17,358 nucleotides of DNA, from UHGV virus genome UHGV-0105864; one strand, written 5' to 3'. The notes under the pieces are model-generated. The model saw nothing but the letters and a program-made list of their open reading frames with translations, made no database searches and was not told the DNA's origin. This DNA comes from a virus. This document shows positions 1 to 16,282 of this stretch, piece by piece. The stretch's first letter is position 1. Every line of letters starts with the position of its first letter. The position numbers were made by a program, and so were the translations under genes.

Positions 1-10
1 TACCAGATGT

Positions 11-41
11 GTACCAAACCATTATTTCTGAGCGTACCAAA
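11..41 (+). repeat. Two direct copies of GTACCAAA (11-18 and 34-41) just upstream of int; possible integrase arm-type site or att-proximal repeat
   Basis: Exact 8-bp direct repeat read in the sequence, 9-39 bp upstream of the int ATG; function is inferred only. Confidence 0.25.
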
Positions 42-49
42 TATTATTT

Positions 50-1228
50 ATGGCTATAAGCGACACAAAACTGCGTAGTATTTATGGTAAACCATATTCG
101 GGCCCACAAGAAGTGGCTGATGCCGATGGCCTCAGCGTACGAATTTCACCGAAGGGGGTCATCCAGTTCCAGTACCGCTATCGCTGGCATGGCAAGCCTA
201 ATCGACTTGGGCTTGGTCGATACCCATCCCTGTCTTTGAAGGATGCCAGACAGATCACTGCTGACTTGCGAAAGCTCTATTTCTCAGGAACGGATCCACG
301 CACTTATTTTGAAGAGAAGGTGGAGAACTCCATGACGGTCGCCCAGTGTCTCGACTACTGGTTCGACAACTACGTCTCTACAACTCTCAGAGAAAAGACC
401 CAGGCACTTTACCGATCAACGGTTATGAAGCGCATGCATGACGCCTTTCCTAATCGTCCGGCATCTTCTATCACGGTTAAGCAATGGGTTGACCTGCTTA
501 CCGAAGAAGAAAGAGATAATCCACGCCGAGCAAGGCAGGTGCTAAGTCAACTAAGATCAGCAATAAGTTGGTGCATGCGGCGTCAGTTGATAGATAGTTG
601 CGCAATTATGAGCATCCAACCAAGGGACTTCGGCTCCCGCGCTGAGGTAGGGGATCGGGTACTGTCGTATCACGAACTGGCTAAGATTTGGCTTGCTATT
701 GAAAGAAGCCGTGCGTCTACGTCAAATAAGCTACTTCATCAGATGCTTATGCTGTGGGGGGCGAGGCTCTCAGAGCTTAGGCTGGCAAAAAAGACAGAAT
801 TTGACCTGCTGGAAAACGTATGGACCGTACCGAAAGAGCATAGCAAGATGGGTAATGTTATCCGCCGTCCAATCTTCGAACAAATTAAGCCTTTCCTCGA
901 AAAGGCCATGACAACGTACAATGATGTTCTTTTCCCTGGAGAAGACATAAACAAACCGATCAGCATCGCTGCAGCCAACCGATTCGTAAATAGAATAAGG
1001 GGAGGGATGGATCTAGGTTACTGGCGAACACACGATTTCAGAAGAACGCTTGTTACACGTCTGTCCGAGATGAATGTCGAGCCTCATGTTACTGAGCGAA
1101 TGCTCGGTCATGAACTTGGCGGGATAATGTCCGTGTACAATAAACACGACTGGATAGAGGCTCAGCGCAAAGCGTATGAGCTTCACGCTGATAAATTGTT
1201 CTGGCACATCAGGAGCATTTCTGATTAA
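50..1228 (+). CDS. int: Phage integrase, tyrosine recombinase (P4-type)
   Basis: 392-aa ORF; N-terminal region and C-terminal catalytic region (HDFRRT, HELGG, final Y) resemble P4-family integrases; sits at the prophage end next to an excisionase. Confidence 0.9.
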   Translation: MAISDTKLRSIYGKPYSGPQEVADADGLSVRISPKGVIQFQYRYRWHGKPNRLGLGRYPSLSLKDARQITADLRKLYFSGTDPRTYFEEKVENSMTVAQCLDYWFDNYVSTTLREKTQALYRSTVMKRMHDAFPNRPASSITVKQWVDLLTEEERDNPRRARQVLSQLRSAISWCMRRQLIDSCAIMSIQPRDFGSRAEVGDRVLSYHELAKIWLAIERSRASTSNKLLHQMLMLWGARLSELRLAKKTEFDLLENVWTVPKEHSKMGNVIRRPIFEQIKPFLEKAMTTYNDVLFPGEDINKPISIAAANRFVNRIRGGMDLGYWRTHDFRRTLVTRLSEMNVEPHVTERMLGHELGGIMSVYNKHDWIEAQRKAYELHADKLFWHIRSISD

Positions 1229-1400
1229 CGCCACCGTTAAGAATCCACCCTTCAACAGCTTCACGAAGGTATGATTTGGGGTGGGTTCTGACTGGCTTCG
1301 GAAATCCGTGCCGTTTGGTATAGTTCCAGATTGTCTGACGTGATGAAACACCGAGCTTGTTCATCACTTCTTTCTCAGGAATCAGGCTGGTATCGGTCAT
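1209..1400 (-). CDS. xis: AlpA-family excisionase / DNA-binding regulator
   Basis: 63-aa ORF with winged-helix-like motif (LGVSSRQTIWNYTKRHGFPKP) typical of AlpA/Xis proteins; GGAG ribosome-binding site 9 nt upstream; 3' end overlaps int 3' end by 20 bp. Confidence 0.7.
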   Translation of the reverse strand: MTDTSLIPEKEVMNKLGVSSRQTIWNYTKRHGFPKPVRTHPKSYLREAVEGWILNGGVNQKCS

Positions 1401-1410
1401 CTTAATTCTC

Positions 1411-1438
1411 CAGGCAAAAAGAAACCGCCATCAGGCGG
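1411..1438 (-). terminator. Intrinsic terminator-like hairpin (CCGCC-ATCA-GGCGG) followed by a U-rich tract on the - strand, directly upstream of xis
   Basis: Stem-loop at 1425-1438 with T-rich run on the - strand (complement of 1411-1424). Confidence 0.45.
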
Positions 1439-1598
1439 CTTGGTGTTCTTTCAGTTCTTCAATTCGAATATTGGTTACGTCTGCATGTGCTATCTGCGCC
1501 CACAGCATCCAGTGGGCATAGCAGTCGTTGATGTCCTCTGCTTCGATAACTCTGTTGAATGGTTCTCCATTCCATTCACCTGTGACTCGGAAGTGCAT
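1431..1598 (-). CDS. Hypothetical small protein (55 aa, MHFRVTGEWNGEPF...)
   Basis: ORF below the supplied track threshold, found by manual translation; GGAG 7 nt upstream of ATG at 1598; stop lies inside the 1425-1438 hairpin. Confidence 0.4.
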   Translation of the reverse strand: MHFRVTGEWNGEPFNRVIEAEDINDCYAHWMLWAQIAHADVTNIRIEELKEHQAA

Positions 1599-1607
1599 TT
1601 ATCATCT

Positions 1608-1634
1608 CCATAAAACAAAACTCGCCGTAGCGAG
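1608..1634 (-). terminator. Intrinsic terminator (CTCGC-CGTA-GCGAG plus U-run) on the - strand
   Basis: Hairpin 1621-1634 followed on the - strand by TTTTGTTTTA (complement of 1611-1620). Confidence 0.5.
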
Positions 1635-1640
1635 TTCAGA

Positions 1641-1665
1641 TAAAAGAAAACCCGCACTCGGCGGG
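1641..1665 (-). terminator. Intrinsic terminator (CCCGC-ACTCG-GCGGG plus U-run) on the - strand
   Basis: Hairpin 1651-1665 followed on the - strand by TTTTCTTTTA (complement of 1641-1650). Confidence 0.5.
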
Positions 1666-1946
1666 TTCGCATTCGTTCAAATTGCGTTTACTTCTTGGCG
1701 TTCTGTTCATCCATATCGATATACCATGGGTTGCTTCCCTTGGGCATGTTTAACGACTGCTCGCGATAGTATCTGATGCGCTCCATGAAATACTCGCGTG
1801 AGTGCTCAGGTTGCTCTCATGATACCTGCTCAGTGATAACAGGTATGTTAAGGCGCTCTCTGTACTCCATGCCTGATGCTGCAAGGTCAACGTTTACCTT
1901 GTTCTGTTTTTCTTTCGATTTCTCGGCGATGTTATGCCTGGCATTG

Positions 1947-2189
1947 TCAACCCGCCTCCTTCTGAACATAACGGTTATAAATCAGTCCCTGAGGGCCACA
2001 AGGAAGCTGGATGTGCAACTCCTCTGGTTCAGAAACTATCCATTCTCCGGCCATCTCCGCTGGAGAGGTAATGATAAGTTGTTTGCTAATAAAAGGACCA
2101 CTCCTCTCAACAACAAGCTTACCATCTTCATTAATAAAAGCTTGGATGTCAGGTGTGCTTCCACACTTGGTGATGCAGCGTTTGAACAT
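1947..2189 (-). CDS. Hypothetical protein (80 aa from ATG 2189; track frame extends to 2231)
   Basis: Open frame 1947-2231; G-rich ribosome-binding site (GGGGGG) 7-9 nt upstream of ATG 2189; start choice is uncertain. Confidence 0.4.
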   Translation of the reverse strand: MFKRCITKCGSTPDIQAFINEDGKLVVERSGPFISKQLIITSPAEMAGEWIVSEPEELHIQLPCGPQGLIYNRYVQKEAG

Positions 2190-2214
2190 TTTGTGTCCCC
2201 CCATTTTATGGACG

Positions 2215-2227
2215 GGGTAATTATAAC
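2215..2227 (-). promoter_or_regulatory. Candidate extended -10 promoter (TGTTATAAT) on the - strand upstream of the 1947-2189 ORF
   Basis: Complement of 2219-2227 reads TGTTATAAT; no strong -35; AT-rich intergenic region 2232-2315. Confidence 0.3.
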
Positions 2228-2315
2228 ACATTGAAATATAGTAATATTTGACGTAGATTTCTTTTGATCTATAAGCGATTTTTTAATGCTTTTAAGTTAT
2301 AAATACTTGTTTTCA

Positions 2316-2732
2316 TCACCCATCTTGCTGCGGTGCTACTATTGAAAAGTGCTCACACCCTTTAGCCCAAATAGTTTTGATAGTTGTCCAACTGACTGGA
2401 ACCTTGATTTCGATTCTCCCGCTACAGTCACAAGTTTCGCAATCATCATCACCAAAGCATTCCGGGCAGCTTATAAACGTAGTTTCTGAAAATTCACCGG
2501 ATAGCACACCCTTAGCGCCGTTCTCAGCGGTTAGTTTCTTCGGCACTATAACCCAACCATCCGGAGTTACCGGAGAGTTGCCCGATGGCTCGTTCAACTT
2601 GCAAGTTTGGCTTACAGGTTCGGCTTCCAGTTCTGCTATGCGCTTTTTTGCTGTTTCCAGCTCGCCCAGCAGCGCCAAGACGGTAGCCGGATTGGCTGCG
2701 GCGATGAATTCAGCATTGGCCTGCTGTTCCAT
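2316..2732 (-). CDS. Ead/Ea22-like family protein, C-terminal part
   Basis: 138-aa ORF with AANPATVLALLGELE and a coiled-coil segment typical of Ea22-like proteins, plus a Cys cluster; no ribosome-binding site before ATG 2732, and the frame continues upstream to an in-frame TAA. Confidence 0.7.
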   Translation of the reverse strand: MEQQANAEFIAAANPATVLALLGELETAKKRIAELEAEPVSQTCKLNEPSGNSPVTPDGWVIVPKKLTAENGAKGVLSGEFSETTFISCPECFGDDDCETCDCSGRIEIKVPVSWTTIKTIWAKGCEHFSIVAPQQDG

Positions 2733-2756
2733 TTGGAAATCTTCATCGAAACCGCT

Positions 2757-2924
2757 TTATGGATGCGCTCCTTCAATTCTGCAAATGGGAATATATCCAG
2801 CAACTTCACGATGAATTAGCGCATCATCACCATCAAATCGGCTCTCTCCATATTCGAGCGACCACTCACCACACGTTGCTTTCTCTGCTTTTTCACGCAG
2901 TACCTGATAGTCAATCTTGTTCAC
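2757..2924 (-). CDS. Probable N-terminal part of the same Ea22-like gene (55 aa), separated by an in-frame TAA
   Basis: GTG start at 2924 with AAGGAGG 6 nt upstream; same reading frame as 2316-2732; TAA at 2757-2759. Confidence 0.45.
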   Translation of the reverse strand: MNKIDYQVLREKAEKATCGEWSLEYGESRFDGDDALIHREVAGYIPICRIEGAHP

Positions 2925-3228
2925 TGGTTGCCTCCTTTGCTGGGCTTTCTAGCTTCTGAGTGGTTGTATCAAACTCAAACAACTTAACCACGTCATCAAA
3001 CAGGACATAATCGCCATCAGAATCTTCAGTCATGTCAGCGCCACAATCCTGACCGCACGAGTCACATCCATCCATATCAAGCTCGTATCGCTTCAGGTTT
3101 GCGATATTTGATAAATTCAGCGCCAGTACAGCCAGGTCATAAACCTCTTCGGCGGTATACCCTGCACCATGCCCATACATTTCAATGCGGGATATGATTT
3201 CTTCTACCCGTTGTTTTGTGATCGTCAT
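2911..3228 (-). CDS. Hypothetical acidic protein (105 aa) with a CxxC-containing, Asp/Glu-rich C-terminus
   Basis: ORF with GGGAGGTG ribosome-binding site; start overlaps upstream stop (ATGA); about 23% acidic residues. Confidence 0.6.
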   Translation of the reverse strand: MTITKQRVEEIISRIEMYGHGAGYTAEEVYDLAVLALNLSNIANLKRYELDMDGCDSCGQDCGADMTEDSDGDYVLFDDVVKLFEFDTTTQKLESPAKEATSEQD

Positions 3229-3686
3229 TTTTGCTCACCTCCCTGTTCTTCCAGAAAAATACGCATAGCCTCAAGCATCTCTTCGGTGTCATACGGAGAC
3301 AGCTTGTCACGCAGGATGTGTTCAATGCTGTTAATGAACTTTCGGATTGCTTTGCGTTCAATTTCAGTCAGGAAAGCATCGGTGGCTGGGGTGTCTGATT
3401 GCAGAGACTTTGCGCGATAGTCATTCCACCCTCTTGCATACATGGGATTAACTTGCACTCCATCTTTTACGCAATATGCCTGCCCTCCACGGTTGATAAC
3501 CTTGATTTCGTCCATAGCGCCAGACTTCAGCCCCGCATTCTCCGCTGCCAGCGCCGCGTACTTGGCCTCCGCTTCAGCAAATTTACGCACCAGATATTCA
3601 GCGTTTGTTTCGTTAACCTTTAAATCTCGTGGGATGCATTTACCTTTCAGAAATCCATCCATCTCAATTAGTGACATTTGTTTCAT
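3225..3686 (-). CDS. Hypothetical phage protein (153 aa)
   Basis: ORF in the translationally coupled early-left operon; start overlaps upstream stop. Confidence 0.6.
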
Positions 3687-6615: not shown

Positions 6616-6643
6616 CCAAAAATAAAGGCCGACTATGAGGCCT
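6616..6643 (-). terminator. Intrinsic terminator (AGGCC-loop-GGCCT then UUUAUUUUUGG) on the - strand, at the end of the 6633-7256 gene
   Basis: Hairpin 6626-6643 overlapping the stop codon; T-rich run on the - strand (complement of 6616-6626). Confidence 0.55.
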
Positions 6644-7256
6644 CGGAAGGAAGTCCAATCATCTTATTCAAATCTTCTACCCGTAAAGCAGGAAGTGCTG
6701 TACTTGCTTTATCTGCTTCTTTTGGTAGCAACTCTTTGCTTTCAGGCCAAACCTCAATAAGTCGCTTAACTGTTGTGACTGAGTTTAAAGCAGCCCATAC
6801 ATTTGATTCGATATCCTTTTTCTTTGCTTCAAGTTTTTGTTGTAATGAGCAGATTTCATCAAACCTTTTTGTTATTTCGTGCTCTGCGTCAAACATGCAT
6901 TTATCTTTTATCGGAGTAGGGAGAAATATATCTTCGCCGTTGCCGTCTTTCCCATATGAATGCCATCCAACCCTTCTGCCAGATACAGTCAGATAAATTG
7001 AAGTAGAACGAAAATCGTATGAGTAAAATGAACATCCCATCTTTCCAAGTTCTTCACTTATAGCTACCAACTTGGATGATAACTGATCCACTTCCTCAGT
7101 TTTCTTTTTACCGCCAAACGCAATAACTCTGGCGTCAAGTGCAAGCTGGTTCTTTAACTTTGTTACTTCTTCAAGCTCAGTGAAAACCCCAGACTTAATT
7201 AAAGCGTTACGAGCGATTTCCTCTTTCATTCTCGTAGTTAAGCGGATTGATGACAT
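6633..7256 (-). CDS. Hypothetical protein (207 aa from ATG 7256), terminator-flanked moron-like gene at the lambda sieB/ea10 position
   Basis: Long ORF; GAGAGG ribosome-binding site 8 nt upstream of ATG 7256 (track start at 7271 is a TTG); hydrophilic with coiled-coil-like stretches; no recognised domain. Confidence 0.65.
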   Translation of the reverse strand: MSSIRLTTRMKEEIARNALIKSGVFTELEEVTKLKNQLALDARVIAFGGKKKTEEVDQLSSKLVAISEELGKMGCSFYSYDFRSTSIYLTVSGRRVGWHSYGKDGNGEDIFLPTPIKDKCMFDAEHEITKRFDEICSLQQKLEAKKKDIESNVWAALNSVTTVKRLIEVWPESKELLPKEADKASTALPALRVEDLNKMIGLPSEAS

Positions 7257-7269
7257 ATTAATTCCTCTC

Positions 7270-15548: not shown

Positions 15549-16063
15549 GCATAAGAGAACTAAACCTCACCAAAGAACAGCATGAGTGGCTGAATGGCTG
15601 GCTTGAACTGTGGGGCGCATGGGTTTATTCAGGTCGTCTGGAAAAGCGCATGAGCAGCGTAATAGCGAAGTTCATGGAGAGCGTAGAGCCGGGAAGAGTT
15701 ATGACAAGGCCAATGTGCAATGATGATGATGGAATGTTGATTTCTCAGGTCGTCGATTCCGTCATGTGCATTGACAAGAAAGCCTTTGGCATCCTCCTCA
15801 GCTACTACGCTCATGGTTCATCTAAGCGAGCAATTGCATCCTACTATCACGCGACTGCAAAGCCACGCAAGATGTGTGGACGTGGTGGCGAGGGATGGAG
15901 AAAACCTTCACTGGCAACCTGTAGAAACGAAATTGACGACATCCTGAAAGCGTCGTTATTTGTTTTGTACCAGCCAATGCAAAATGCTTTTAAAATGCGT
16001 AAACGTGTTGAGAAAGTTAAGCATGTTGCTGTTAAAAGCCTTGACATGCAATTATCCATTTAG
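15545..16063 (+). CDS. Q: Putative late-gene antiterminator Q (not lambda-Q type)
   Basis: 172-aa ORF in the Q position (after ninH, immediately before a pR'-like promoter, terminator, tRNAs and S/R); the sequence itself was not recognised, so the call is positional. Confidence 0.5.
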   Translation: MSIRELNLTKEQHEWLNGWLELWGAWVYSGRLEKRMSSVIAKFMESVEPGRVMTRPMCNDDDGMLISQVVDSVMCIDKKAFGILLSYYAHGSSKRAIASYYHATAKPRKMCGRGGEGWRKPSLATCRNEIDDILKASLFVLYQPMQNAFKMRKRVEKVKHVAVKSLDMQLSI

Positions 16064-16070
16064 CCATAAT
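16041..16070 (+). promoter_or_regulatory. Candidate late promoter pR' (-35 TTGACA 16041-16046, 18-bp spacer, -10 CATAAT 16065-16070)
   Basis: Consensus -35 hexamer inside the 3' end of the Q-position gene; -10 just after its stop codon. Confidence 0.5.
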
Positions 16071-16126: not shown

Positions 16127-16201
16127 GGGTCAGTCGTATAAAGGTCATTACGGAAGGCTGTTAACCTTCTTATCGTGGTTCGAGCCCACGCTGTCCCGCC
16201 A
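16127..16201 (+). tRNA. Phage-encoded tRNA, anticodon GUU by manual fold (tRNA-Asn-like), with acceptor and D-stem mismatches
   Basis: Cloverleaf read by hand: acceptor GGGTCAG/CTGTCCC (one U-U mismatch), anticodon stem GAAGG/CCTTC with loop CTGTTAA, T-arm CGTGG-TTCGAGC-CCACG, 3' G-CCA encoded. Confidence 0.55.
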
Positions 16202-16206
16202 AACAT

Positions 16207-16282
16207 GCTGGTTTAGCTCCAATGGTAGAGCAGTCGCCTTGTAAGCGAATGGGTAGCGGTTCAAGTCCGTTAACCAGCACCA
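16207..16282 (+). tRNA. Phage-encoded tRNA, anticodon UGU by manual fold (tRNA-Thr-like)
   Basis: Acceptor GCTGGTT/AACCAGC, D-stem GCTC/GAGC, anticodon loop CTTGTAA, T-arm AGCGG-TTCAAGT-CCGTT (one G-U pair), discriminator A plus CCA encoded. Confidence 0.6.

What the first reader, a model, noticed from the sequence alone, without database searches (positions are those of the whole stretch)
1411..1665. Three stacked intrinsic terminators and a 55-aa ORF upstream of xis
Three hairpin-plus-U-run structures on the - strand (1641-1665, 1608-1634, 1411-1438) precede xis, with a small ORF (1431-1598) squeezed between the second and third. Leftward transcription would need antitermination to reach xis, which ties excision to N. 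Given the frame-disrupted N, this prophage may be excision-defective.
Basis: partly seen in the sequence, partly recalled or inferred. Interest (0 to 1): 0.4.

Follow-up and report, generated by a model that had tools for sequence, protein, structure and literature searches.

The report
Lambda orf55 cassette with flanking terminators
This is the familiar phage-lambda layout, a tiny gene (orf55) bracketed by transcription stop signals just ahead of the excision gene, sitting in an ordinary E. coli prophage whose antiterminator gene N has lost one base.

Summary
Three hairpin-plus-T-run sites lie on the - strand (stems 1668-1648, 1637-1618, 1441-1422; dG about -12 to -13 kcal/mol). A 55-codon ORF (1431-1598) sits between the second and third. 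Sites this strong are about 17 times commoner in the window than in shuffles.

None of it is new. The ORF is lambda orf55 (lambdap35, phrog_676). Lambda has the same three hairpins at the same places, and they were published as predicted terminators t3-t5 (PMC4195576). HK140's GenBank record already annotates the third one. In 85 related loci the hairpin 2-orf55-hairpin 3 unit is a conserved mosaic module whose homology breaks at the T-runs. It sits upstream of three unrelated excisionase families.

The downstream gene here is 47% identical to the validated phi24B Xis, next to an inverted phi24B-type integrase.

N does carry a private 1-nt deletion, so the "N-dependent xis" reading is the textbook lambda model and is plausible. 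Two caveats apply. Two further strong terminators lie upstream on the same path. An N defect would block the whole delayed-early programme, not only excision.

No termination or excision was measured. Verdict: ordinary, already known.

The parts
1638..1668 (-). Hairpin 1: intrinsic-terminator-like site, 19 nt after the stop of the upstream theta-like pseudogene. Stem 1668-1648, T-tail 1647-1638. It is the positional counterpart of lambda t3.
   Evidence: -12.0 kcal/mol. Related loci carry at least 4 unrelated stems at this position, all followed by the same tail TCTTTTATCTGAAC. Lambda counterpart: and PMC4195576 Table 4.
1608..1637 (-). Hairpin 2: intrinsic-terminator-like site. Stem 1637-1618, T-tail 1617-1608. 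The tail runs into the orf55 Shine-Dalgarno GGAG (1609-1606). Homologue of lambda t4.
   Evidence: -11.9 kcal/mol, z -4.2. Strong in 75 of 85 loci. Stem variation is pair-preserving, U-A versus U.G in 29 and 24 sequences, with one disruptive change in 53.
1431..1598 (-). orf55 homologue (lambda lambdap35, phrog_676), 55 aa, function unknown.
1412..1441 (-). Hairpin 3: intrinsic-terminator-like site. Its 5' arm (1441-1434) is the last orf55 codons, its loop (1433-1430) holds the TGA stop, its 3' arm is 1429-1422 and its T-tail is 1421-1412. Homologue of lambda t5.
   Evidence: -13.0 kcal/mol. Annotated as a rho-independent terminator in HK140. Strong in 84 of 85 loci, including a Klebsiella homologue with a different loop. 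G.U versus A-U variation at one pair.
1209..1400 (-). xis: 63-aa AlpA/phi24B-type excisionase. Its SD GGAG is at 1411-1408. It overlaps the 3' end of int by 20 bp.
   Evidence: 47% identity (E 4e-19) to phi24B Xis. phrog_66 'excisionase and transcriptional regulator' at E 1.9e-8. Weak Pfam AlpA hit, below the cutoff.
50..1228 (+). Integrase of P4/phi24B type, transcribed rightward and convergent with xis, so not part of the leftward operon.
   Evidence: Pfam Arm-DNA-bind_3 and Phage_integrase. 56% identity to phi24B Int. Relatives lie next to sbcB.
7572..7870 (-). N antiterminator gene (CUS-3/phage 21 type) with a 1-nt deletion between 7779 and 7778. The reading frame stops at 7751 after 39 aa.
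   Evidence: Alignments to CUS-3, phage 21 and three E. coli prophages, all with an intact 99-aa N.
8187..8226 (-). nutL-like site: boxA GCTCTTTA (8226-8219) and a boxB-like hairpin CCCGC..GCGGG (8202-8187), downstream of the promoter-like site 8301-8273 (pL).
   Evidence: Sequence read. It matches the annotated boxA-L context of phage 21. pL-like site.
7283..7304 (-). Upstream terminator-like site at the end of ral, with the stop codon in the loop as in hairpin 3. It is one of two earlier strong barriers on the pL path; the other is at 6500-6479.
   Evidence: -13.9 and -12.7 kcal/mol.

Best explanation
The region is the distal end of a lambda-type leftward (pL) early operon. It holds the widespread orf55 cassette (hairpin 2, Shine-Dalgarno, orf55, hairpin 3), preceded by the terminator of the upstream gene (hairpin 1) and followed directly by the excisionase gene. 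The three hairpins are intrinsic terminators for leftward transcription. In a lysogen, or on any unmodified transcript, they keep RNA polymerase from reaching orf55 and xis. After induction, polymerase that N has modified at nutL reads through them, as it reads through the earlier terminators at 7304 and 6500, so orf55 and xis behave as delayed-early, N-dependent genes. int is inverted and has its own promoter, so Xis supply sets the direction of recombination, as proposed for phi24B. Shown here: the structures, their excess over chance, their conservation, their homology to lambda t3-t5, the homology of xis and int, the lack of room for a promoter, and the N frameshift. Inferred: that they terminate efficiently, that N overrides them, and that this prophage therefore excises poorly.
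For: Hairpins and tails. Eight strict sites against 0.47 expected. Lambda has the same three sites flanking orf55, and they are published as predicted terminators t3-t5 (PMC4195576). HK140 annotates hairpin 3 as a rho-independent terminator. Across 85 loci hairpin 3 is strong in 84, hairpin 2 in 75 and hairpin 1 in 66, and hairpin 1 has several unrelated stems before an identical T-tail. The non-coding hairpin 2 region varies less than the third codon positions of orf55 (0.036, 0 and 0.018 for stem, loop and tail, against 0.066), and its stem changes keep pairing. The hairpins lack a usable U-tract on the + strand. No promoter-like site lies on the - strand between 1400 and 4570. All genes from pL (8301-8273) down to xis are on the - strand. 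nutL boxA and boxB are present. xis and int are homologous to the validated phi24B pair and have the same inverted layout (PMC3064807). N frameshift. That N antitermination is needed for pL-driven xis expression in lambda is stated in PMC2951348.
Against: No termination, read-through or excision was measured, here or in the literature found; the lambda counterparts are only ARNold predictions. The z-scores of the single hairpins are modest (-2.5 to -4.2). No pair shows a two-sided compensatory change, because the homologues are more than 95% alike, so covariation proper is absent. Hairpin 3 overlaps the orf55 stop codon, where a trailing ribosome is reported to repress termination almost completely (PMC4824070), so it may be weak on translated transcripts. 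About 10-20% of related loci lack hairpin 1 or hairpin 2, so neither is indispensable.
Confidence: 0.75

Rival explanations
1. The hairpins matter mainly as module boundaries and RNA end-protectors, not as efficient terminators. Short conserved hairpin-plus-T-run sequences would serve as homology patches where lambdoid modules are exchanged, and as 3' structures that stabilise processed mRNA segments. Termination would be minor.
For: Homology between phages breaks exactly at the T-tails of hairpin 1 and hairpin 3. The same upstream module occurs with different downstream modules: the window has the phi24B-type xis, L028 the lambda xis and L041 the TorI-type xis. Five downstream and at least five upstream contexts were seen. 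The CUS-3 record annotates 'boundary sequences' elsewhere in such phages.
Against: A recombination patch does not need a stem. Yet at the hairpin 1 position several unrelated sequences all form a hairpin before the shared tail, and stem polymorphisms keep pairing. The geometry (8-bp GC-rich stem, 4-5 nt loop, 8-10 nt T-rich tail, one strand only) is that of canonical intrinsic terminators. The two roles do not exclude each other.
Confidence: 0.12
2. Hairpin 3 works as a translation-gated attenuator. Because the orf55 stop codon lies in its loop, a ribosome finishing orf55 close behind the polymerase masks the stem. Transcripts that are translated then continue into xis, and only untranslated transcripts, such as spurious starts inside orf55, terminate. 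Hairpin 2, which has no translated ORF directly upstream, is then the real gate.
For: The TGA at 1433-1431 is the first three loop bases. The stop-in-loop geometry is kept in lambda, in all 85 loci, and in Klebsiella homologues with a different loop, CACTGA. Terminator tR2 placed a few bp after a gene is almost completely repressed in vivo (PMC4824070, abstract). The ral terminator at 7304-7283 has the same design.
Against: This is pure inference from geometry. Compact phage genomes often overlap stop codons and terminators with no regulatory meaning. N-modified polymerase would read through in any case.
Confidence: 0.3
3. The N lesion is an assembly or sequencing error. In that case the prophage is fully N-proficient and excises normally, and the terminators are simply overridden as in lambda.
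For: It is a single-base deletion seen only in this window. The window also has one extra A in an A8-9 run nearby, a typical homopolymer error.
Against: The deletion is not in a homopolymer: GAGCAG or GAACAG becomes GACAG. The window also carries a nonsense substitution in the Ea22-like gene, TAA at 2757-2759 where the closest relative has Glu, and a theta pseudogene shared with that relative. This fits real decay. Window 1-3311 shows no net indel against the closest relative, so the assembly is not generally indel-prone.
Confidence: 0.2
4. orf55 is a classical moron, with its own promoter, gene and terminator, expressed from the prophage independently of pL.
For: The cassette is terminator-bracketed and mobile between phages.
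Against: No promoter-like site lies on the - strand near it (none in lambda either). Only 9 nt separate the stem of hairpin 2 from the SD. The sequence upstream of hairpin 2 is the variable hairpin 1, so no conserved -35 or -10 can exist there.
Confidence: 0.05

Closest known systems
Phage lambda ea8.5-orf55-xis interval (NC_001416 29,080-29,370) with predicted terminators t3, t4 and t5 (Bloch et al. 2014, PMC4195576)
   Same: Same gene (orf55, 93-96% aa identity in this group). Hairpins 2 and 3 are nearly base for base the same. A hairpin with a T-run follows the upstream gene at the same position. xis follows directly. All are in the N-dependent pL operon.
   Different: The stem of hairpin 1 is unrelated (GAACCCGCC... 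against AATCCTCGC...) because the upstream gene is a theta-like pseudogene rather than ea8.5. Downstream is a phi24B-type xis rather than lambda xis with its cII-dependent pI. int is inverted.
Enterobacteria phage HK140 (JQ086370) int-xis-orf55 region
   Same: 98.5% identical over window 1200-1653. Same integrase, same 63-aa xis-like ORF and same orf55. Hairpin 3 is annotated 'rho-independent terminator'.
   Different: HK140 has the lambda-type stem of hairpin 1 and a different upstream gene. It is a viable phage with an N gene annotated as intact.
Stx phage phi24B inverted int / xis module (Fogg et al. 2011, PMC3064807)
   Same: Int is 56% identical and Xis 47% identical. int is convergent with xis and their 3' ends overlap (17 bp there, 20 bp here). 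In the proposed model xis stays under CI/pL control while int has its own promoter. A predicted terminator (t3_24B) lies upstream of xis.
   Different: phi24B has no orf55 cassette (PMC8614690). It has a single hairpin, about 45 nt before xis.
Lambda N/nut antitermination through the pL terminators (textbook system)
   Same: A pL-like promoter next to the repressor, nutL boxA and boxB, an N with an arginine-rich motif, and a string of intrinsic terminators before the recombination gene.
   Different: N here is of the CUS-3/phage 21 type and is frameshifted. None of the terminators has been tested.
KplE1/HK620 TorI-IntS module (Panis et al. 2010, PMC2951348)
   Same: An int gene uncoupled from, and oriented against, the RDF gene. 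In 40 of 81 related loci the orf55 cassette sits directly upstream of a TorI-identical gene.
   Different: The RDF and integrase families differ from those in the window. That paper leaves the torI promoter uncharacterised.

Membership tests
Intrinsic (Rho-independent) terminator | G+C-rich stem-loop of about 5-14 bp with a short loop | tested here: met
   8-bp stems with 4-5 G-C pairs and loops of 4-5 nt; -11.9 to -13.0 kcal/mol.
Intrinsic (Rho-independent) terminator | U-rich tract immediately 3' of the stem on the transcribed strand | tested here: met
   The last 3 stem bases are T, followed by TCTTTTATCT, TGTTTTATGG or CTTTTTGCCT. No usable tract on the + strand.
Intrinsic (Rho-independent) terminator | Base pairing maintained in homologues | tested here: inconclusive
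   Only one-sided, pair-preserving changes (U-A/U.G, G.U/A-U/G-C), with one disruptive change in 53 sequences and no two-sided compensatory change. Unrelated stems at the hairpin 1 position all fold, but they arrived by module exchange.
Intrinsic (Rho-independent) terminator | RNA 3' ends or reduced downstream transcription at the site | not testable with these tools
   No expression data. The lambda counterparts are predictions only (PMC4195576).
Lambda orf55 (lambdap35, phrog_676) | Sequence homology over the full length | tested here: met
   phrog_676 at E 1.4e-39 over residues 1-55. HK140 and HK106 annotate their copies as similar to lambdap35. The lambda sequence is directly alignable.
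Lambda orf55 (lambdap35, phrog_676) | Position as last gene of the exo-xis region, just upstream of the recombination module | tested here: met
   An RDF gene starts within about 70 nt in 65 of 81 loci. In 14 loci one ORF (ORF114) intervenes.
N/nut-dependent pL operon | nutL (boxA plus a boxB hairpin) downstream of pL, and an N protein with an arginine-rich motif | tested here: met
   boxA GCTCTTTA at 8226-8219, identical to the annotated phage 21 boxA-L; boxB-like hairpin at 8202-8187. The N N-terminus reads DDNARNRRRARRQAQREQ.
N/nut-dependent pL operon | Intact N able to bind NusA and RNA polymerase | tested here: not met
   The 1-nt deletion truncates N at 39 aa.
phi24B-type Int/Xis recombination module | Homology to the validated Xis and Int, with int inverted and overlapping xis at the 3' ends | tested here: met
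   Xis 47% identity, E 4e-19. Int 56% identity, E 2e-170. Overlap of 20 bp here against 17 bp there.
phi24B-type Int/Xis recombination module | Excisionase activity | not testable with these tools
   Shown experimentally only for phi24B Xis (PMC3064807).
Moron (promoter-gene-terminator unit) | Own promoter upstream of the gene | tested here: not met
   No promoter-like site on the - strand, and no conserved sequence upstream of hairpin 2.
T7 Gp2-like RNA polymerase inhibitor (proposal for Orf55 in PMC8614690) | Specific fold similarity to Gp2 | tested here: inconclusive

The most novel reading that the evidence does not exclude
The orf55 cassette may be a portable gate for excisionase genes. 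It is found directly upstream of three unrelated RDF families (lambda Xis, TorI/HK620 Xis, phi24B-type Xis). It always has a translation-independent terminator (hairpin 2) in front, and a terminator whose loop holds the orf55 stop codon (hairpin 3) behind. On this reading xis transcription would depend both on antitermination and on active translation of orf55, a two-key control of prophage excision that has not been described.
Probability: 0.15. Interest if true: 0.4.

Novelty: already known. Interest (0 to 1): 0.12.

Why it matters
It matters little beyond annotation. The result shows that the "stacked terminators" are the standard lambda orf55 cassette and that the N-dependence of xis is the textbook model. 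The locally useful outcome is that this prophage carries a private frameshift in N plus two other damaged genes. It is therefore probably a decaying prophage that induces and excises poorly. The one point that may deserve a small experiment is whether translation of orf55 controls read-through of hairpin 3 into xis. That would apply to lambda itself.

Tried and rejected
Rfam, at gathering thresholds over the whole window and at E<=1 over 1200-2300, gave only two tRNAs elsewhere and a chance rsmX hit (24 bits against 56) over the hairpins. No known RNA family is involved.

I looked for a promoter for orf55 or xis and found none.

I tried to link the hairpins to the classical lambda terminator tL3. 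The papers that mention tL3 gave no coordinates, and one hit concerned unrelated synthetic 'L3S' terminators. From memory tL3 lies just after exo, not here; I could not verify this.

The Liu et al. ribosome-profiling paper was not held.

Pfam and NCBIfam have no family for Orf55.

The Gp2-like proposal for Orf55 was re-tested by a fold search and found unspecific.

I searched for two-sided compensatory changes in the stems. There are none, because all homologues are too close.

I tested whether hairpin 3 could be a bidirectional terminator for the convergent int gene. The + strand lacks a proper U-tract.

The genome-contig scan mostly returned lambda contamination rather than informative relatives.

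Full report
OBSERVATION

The - strand of 1408-1668 carries three hairpins, each followed by a T-rich run:
- Hairpin 1: stem 1668-1648.
- Hairpin 2: stem 1637-1618.
- Hairpin 3: stem 1441-1422.

Each has an 8-bp stem with 4-5 G-C pairs and a loop of 4-5 nt. Folding energies are -12.0, -11.9 and -13.0 kcal/mol. With strict criteria the 17.4-kb window holds 8 such sites, against 0.47 +/- 0.69 in 300 dinucleotide shuffles, and three of the 8 are these. On the + strand the stems are not followed by a usable U-tract. They are therefore specific to leftward transcription.

The 55-codon ORF 1431-1598 (-) is real. Its Shine-Dalgarno sequence begins inside the tail of hairpin 2. Its last codons and its stop codon form the 5' arm and the loop of hairpin 3. 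The xis Shine-Dalgarno follows the T-run of hairpin 3 directly.

WHAT IT IS

A megablast of 1200-1760 finds 194 phage records. HK140 is 98.5% identical. Its record annotates the ORF as similar to lambda lambdap35 and annotates hairpin 3 as a rho-independent terminator. HK106 has the same ORF next to a lambda-type xis and int.

Lambda itself (NC_001416) shows the same layout. There is a hairpin with a T-run after ea8.5, then GAACTCGCTACGGCGGGTTT + TGTTTTATGG, then orf55, then AAGCCGCCTGATGGCGGTTT + TTTCTTGCGT, then xis. Bloch et al. 2014 listed exactly these three as predicted terminators t3, t4 and t5 of the lambda exo-xis region (PMC4195576).

CONSERVATION AND MOSAICISM

I examined 85 loci that carry the gene: 80 IMG/VR contigs, one Escherichia genome, lambda, HK140, HK106 and two Klebsiella homologues.
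- Hairpin 3 is strong in 84 of them.
- Hairpin 2 is strong in 75.
- A hairpin at the hairpin 1 position is strong in 66.

At the hairpin 1 position there are at least four unrelated stems (AATCCTCGC.., GAACCCGCC.., GCCGCTTAATGCGG, CCTCGCACCGTCGAGG). All are followed by the same tail, T(C/A)TTTTATCTGAAC. Homology between phages breaks at the T-tails of hairpin 1 and hairpin 3.

Downstream of hairpin 3 lie five alternative modules:
- a gene identical to TorI (PDB 1Z4H, E 7e-43), in 40 loci;
- lambda xis with pI, in 16 loci;
- ORF114 followed by an Exc-family xis, in 14 loci;
- the window's xis type, in 9 loci;
- one other, in 1 locus.

Among 53 distinct canonical sequences, per-site diversity is as follows:

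| Region | Diversity |
|---|---|
| Hairpin 2 stem | 0.036 |
| Hairpin 2 loop | 0 |
| Hairpin 2 tail | 0.018 |
| orf55 third codon positions | 0.066 |

The stem polymorphisms keep pairing (U-A/U.G in 29 and 24 sequences; G.U/A-U in 48 and 5). One sequence has a disruptive change. There is no two-sided compensatory change, so strict covariation is not shown. A Klebsiella homologue at 78% amino-acid identity keeps the stem of hairpin 3 with a different loop that again holds the stop codon.

CONTEXT IN THE WINDOW

All genes from the pL-like promoter (8301-8273, next to a P22 C2-like repressor at 8394-9044) down to xis are on the - strand. In order they are N, ral, an Nmad5-domain gene, RecT, a Gp157-like gene, an Ea22-like gene, a theta-like pseudogene, orf55 and xis.

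nutL is present. boxA (GCTCTTTA, 8226-8219) is identical to the annotated boxA-L of phage 21, and a boxB-like hairpin lies at 8202-8187. Two further strong leftward terminators precede the three studied here, at 7304-7283 after ral and at 6500-6479. No promoter-like site occurs on the - strand between 4570 and 1400.

The 63-aa gene at 1209-1400 is 47% identical (E 4e-19) to the phi24B excisionase. The integrase at 50-1228 (+) is 56% identical to phi24B Int. The convergent, 3'-overlapping layout is the same. Fogg et al. validated that Xis experimentally. They proposed that the inverted int escapes CI control while xis stays under pL (PMC3064807). Relatives of this prophage sit next to sbcB.

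THE N LESION

Relative to CUS-3, phage 21 and three E. coli prophages, all with an intact 99-aa N, the window lacks one base between 7779 and 7778. CAAGA(G/A)CAGCG has become CAAGACAGCG, and the site is not a homopolymer. The result is a 39-aa product that retains only the arginine-rich motif.

The window also has a nonsense codon in the Ea22-like gene (TAA at 2757-2759, where the nearest relative has Glu) and a theta pseudogene shared with that relative. Window 1-3311 shows no net indel against that relative. This pattern fits real decay better than assembly error, but read-level confirmation is not available.

MECHANISM

The best-supported reading is the lambda model. The hairpins are intrinsic terminators that stop unmodified leftward transcription before orf55 and xis. 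N-modified polymerase from pL reads through them. [quoted passage not shown]

Here only xis depends on this path, because int is inverted. With N truncated, delayed-early expression as a whole should fail, excision included.

The steps from "looks like a terminator" to "terminates", and from "N frameshift" to "no excision", are inferences.

One refinement is worth noting. A terminator placed within a few bp of a translated gene's stop codon is almost fully repressed in vivo (PMC4824070). The loop of hairpin 3 contains the orf55 stop codon, whereas hairpin 2 has no translated ORF just upstream. Hairpin 2 may therefore be the effective gate, and hairpin 3 may act mainly on untranslated transcripts.

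COMPARISON AND VERDICT

Every element has a direct, published or annotated counterpart:
- the lambda orf55 cassette with t3-t5;
- the terminator annotated in HK140;
- the phi24B inverted int/xis module;
- N/nut antitermination.

The cassette fails the moron definition because it has no promoter. Nothing here is a new kind of system. The only strain-specific feature is the damaged N. Interest is low.

Noticed in passing
window 7751-7870 (-), deletion between 7779 and 7778: N antiterminator of the CUS-3/phage 21 type is truncated to 39 aa by a private 1-nt deletion. Four close relatives have an intact 99-aa N.
   Followed up: yes
window 2316-2924 (-) and 1688-1969 (-): The Ea22-like gene has an in-frame TAA (2757-2759) where E. 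coli JKHS016 has Glu. The theta-like (DNA pol III theta/Hot) gene has an internal stop that JKHS016 shares. Together with N, that makes three damaged genes in the leftward operon.
   Followed up: partly
window 1209-1228: int (+) and xis (-) converge and overlap by 20 bp, as in phi24B (17 bp). Antiterminated pL transcription would run antisense into int. The + strand just after the int stop (1225-1300) folds unusually well (-28.5 kcal/mol, z -3.7) but has no U-tract.
   Followed up: partly
window 7283-7304 (-): The terminator after ral (AAGGCTGCCTGATGGTGGCCTT) mirrors hairpin 3. It has the same CTGATGG centre, its stop codon TGA lies in the loop, and the protein ends in Ala-Ala, as Orf55 does.
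   Followed up: no
window 7915-7965 (-): A very stable hairpin (-22.2 kcal/mol, z -5.7, none of 200 shuffles as good) lies in the N leader just upstream of the N ribosome-binding site. It recalls the RNase III-sensitive structure of the lambda N leader (from memory, not tested).
   Followed up: no
window 9661-9688 (-): A strong 12-bp terminator lies antisense to the end of the cII-like gene, at the position of lambda's OOP RNA terminator.
   Followed up: no
window 6633-7271 (-): A 212-aa Nmad5 (nucleotide modification associated domain 5, E 7e-71) gene lies in the early leftward operon between ral and the recombination genes.
   Followed up: no
window 16127-16201 and 16207-16282 (+): tRNA-Asn(GTT) and tRNA-Thr(TGT) lie between the Q-like gene with its strong promoter-like site (16041-16070, 11 of 12 matches) and the holin gene.
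   Followed up: no
L087-L102 (genome-contig hits): orf55 with exact lambda flanks turns up on low-coverage contigs, several about 48.4-48.5 kb long, in assemblies labelled Shewanella, Pseudomonas, Chromatium, Oceanobacillus, Kitasatospora, Paenibacillus and others. This is almost certainly lambda control-DNA contamination of those assemblies.
   Followed up: partly
L011, L016, L024, L045, L054, L082 (upstream of orf55): A minority of loci lack hairpins 1 and 2. There orf55 follows another gene whose stop codon lies in the loop of a different hairpin (GTGCGAATCGAATAAGAAGCGCAC), so the upstream double terminator is common but not obligatory.
   Followed up: partly
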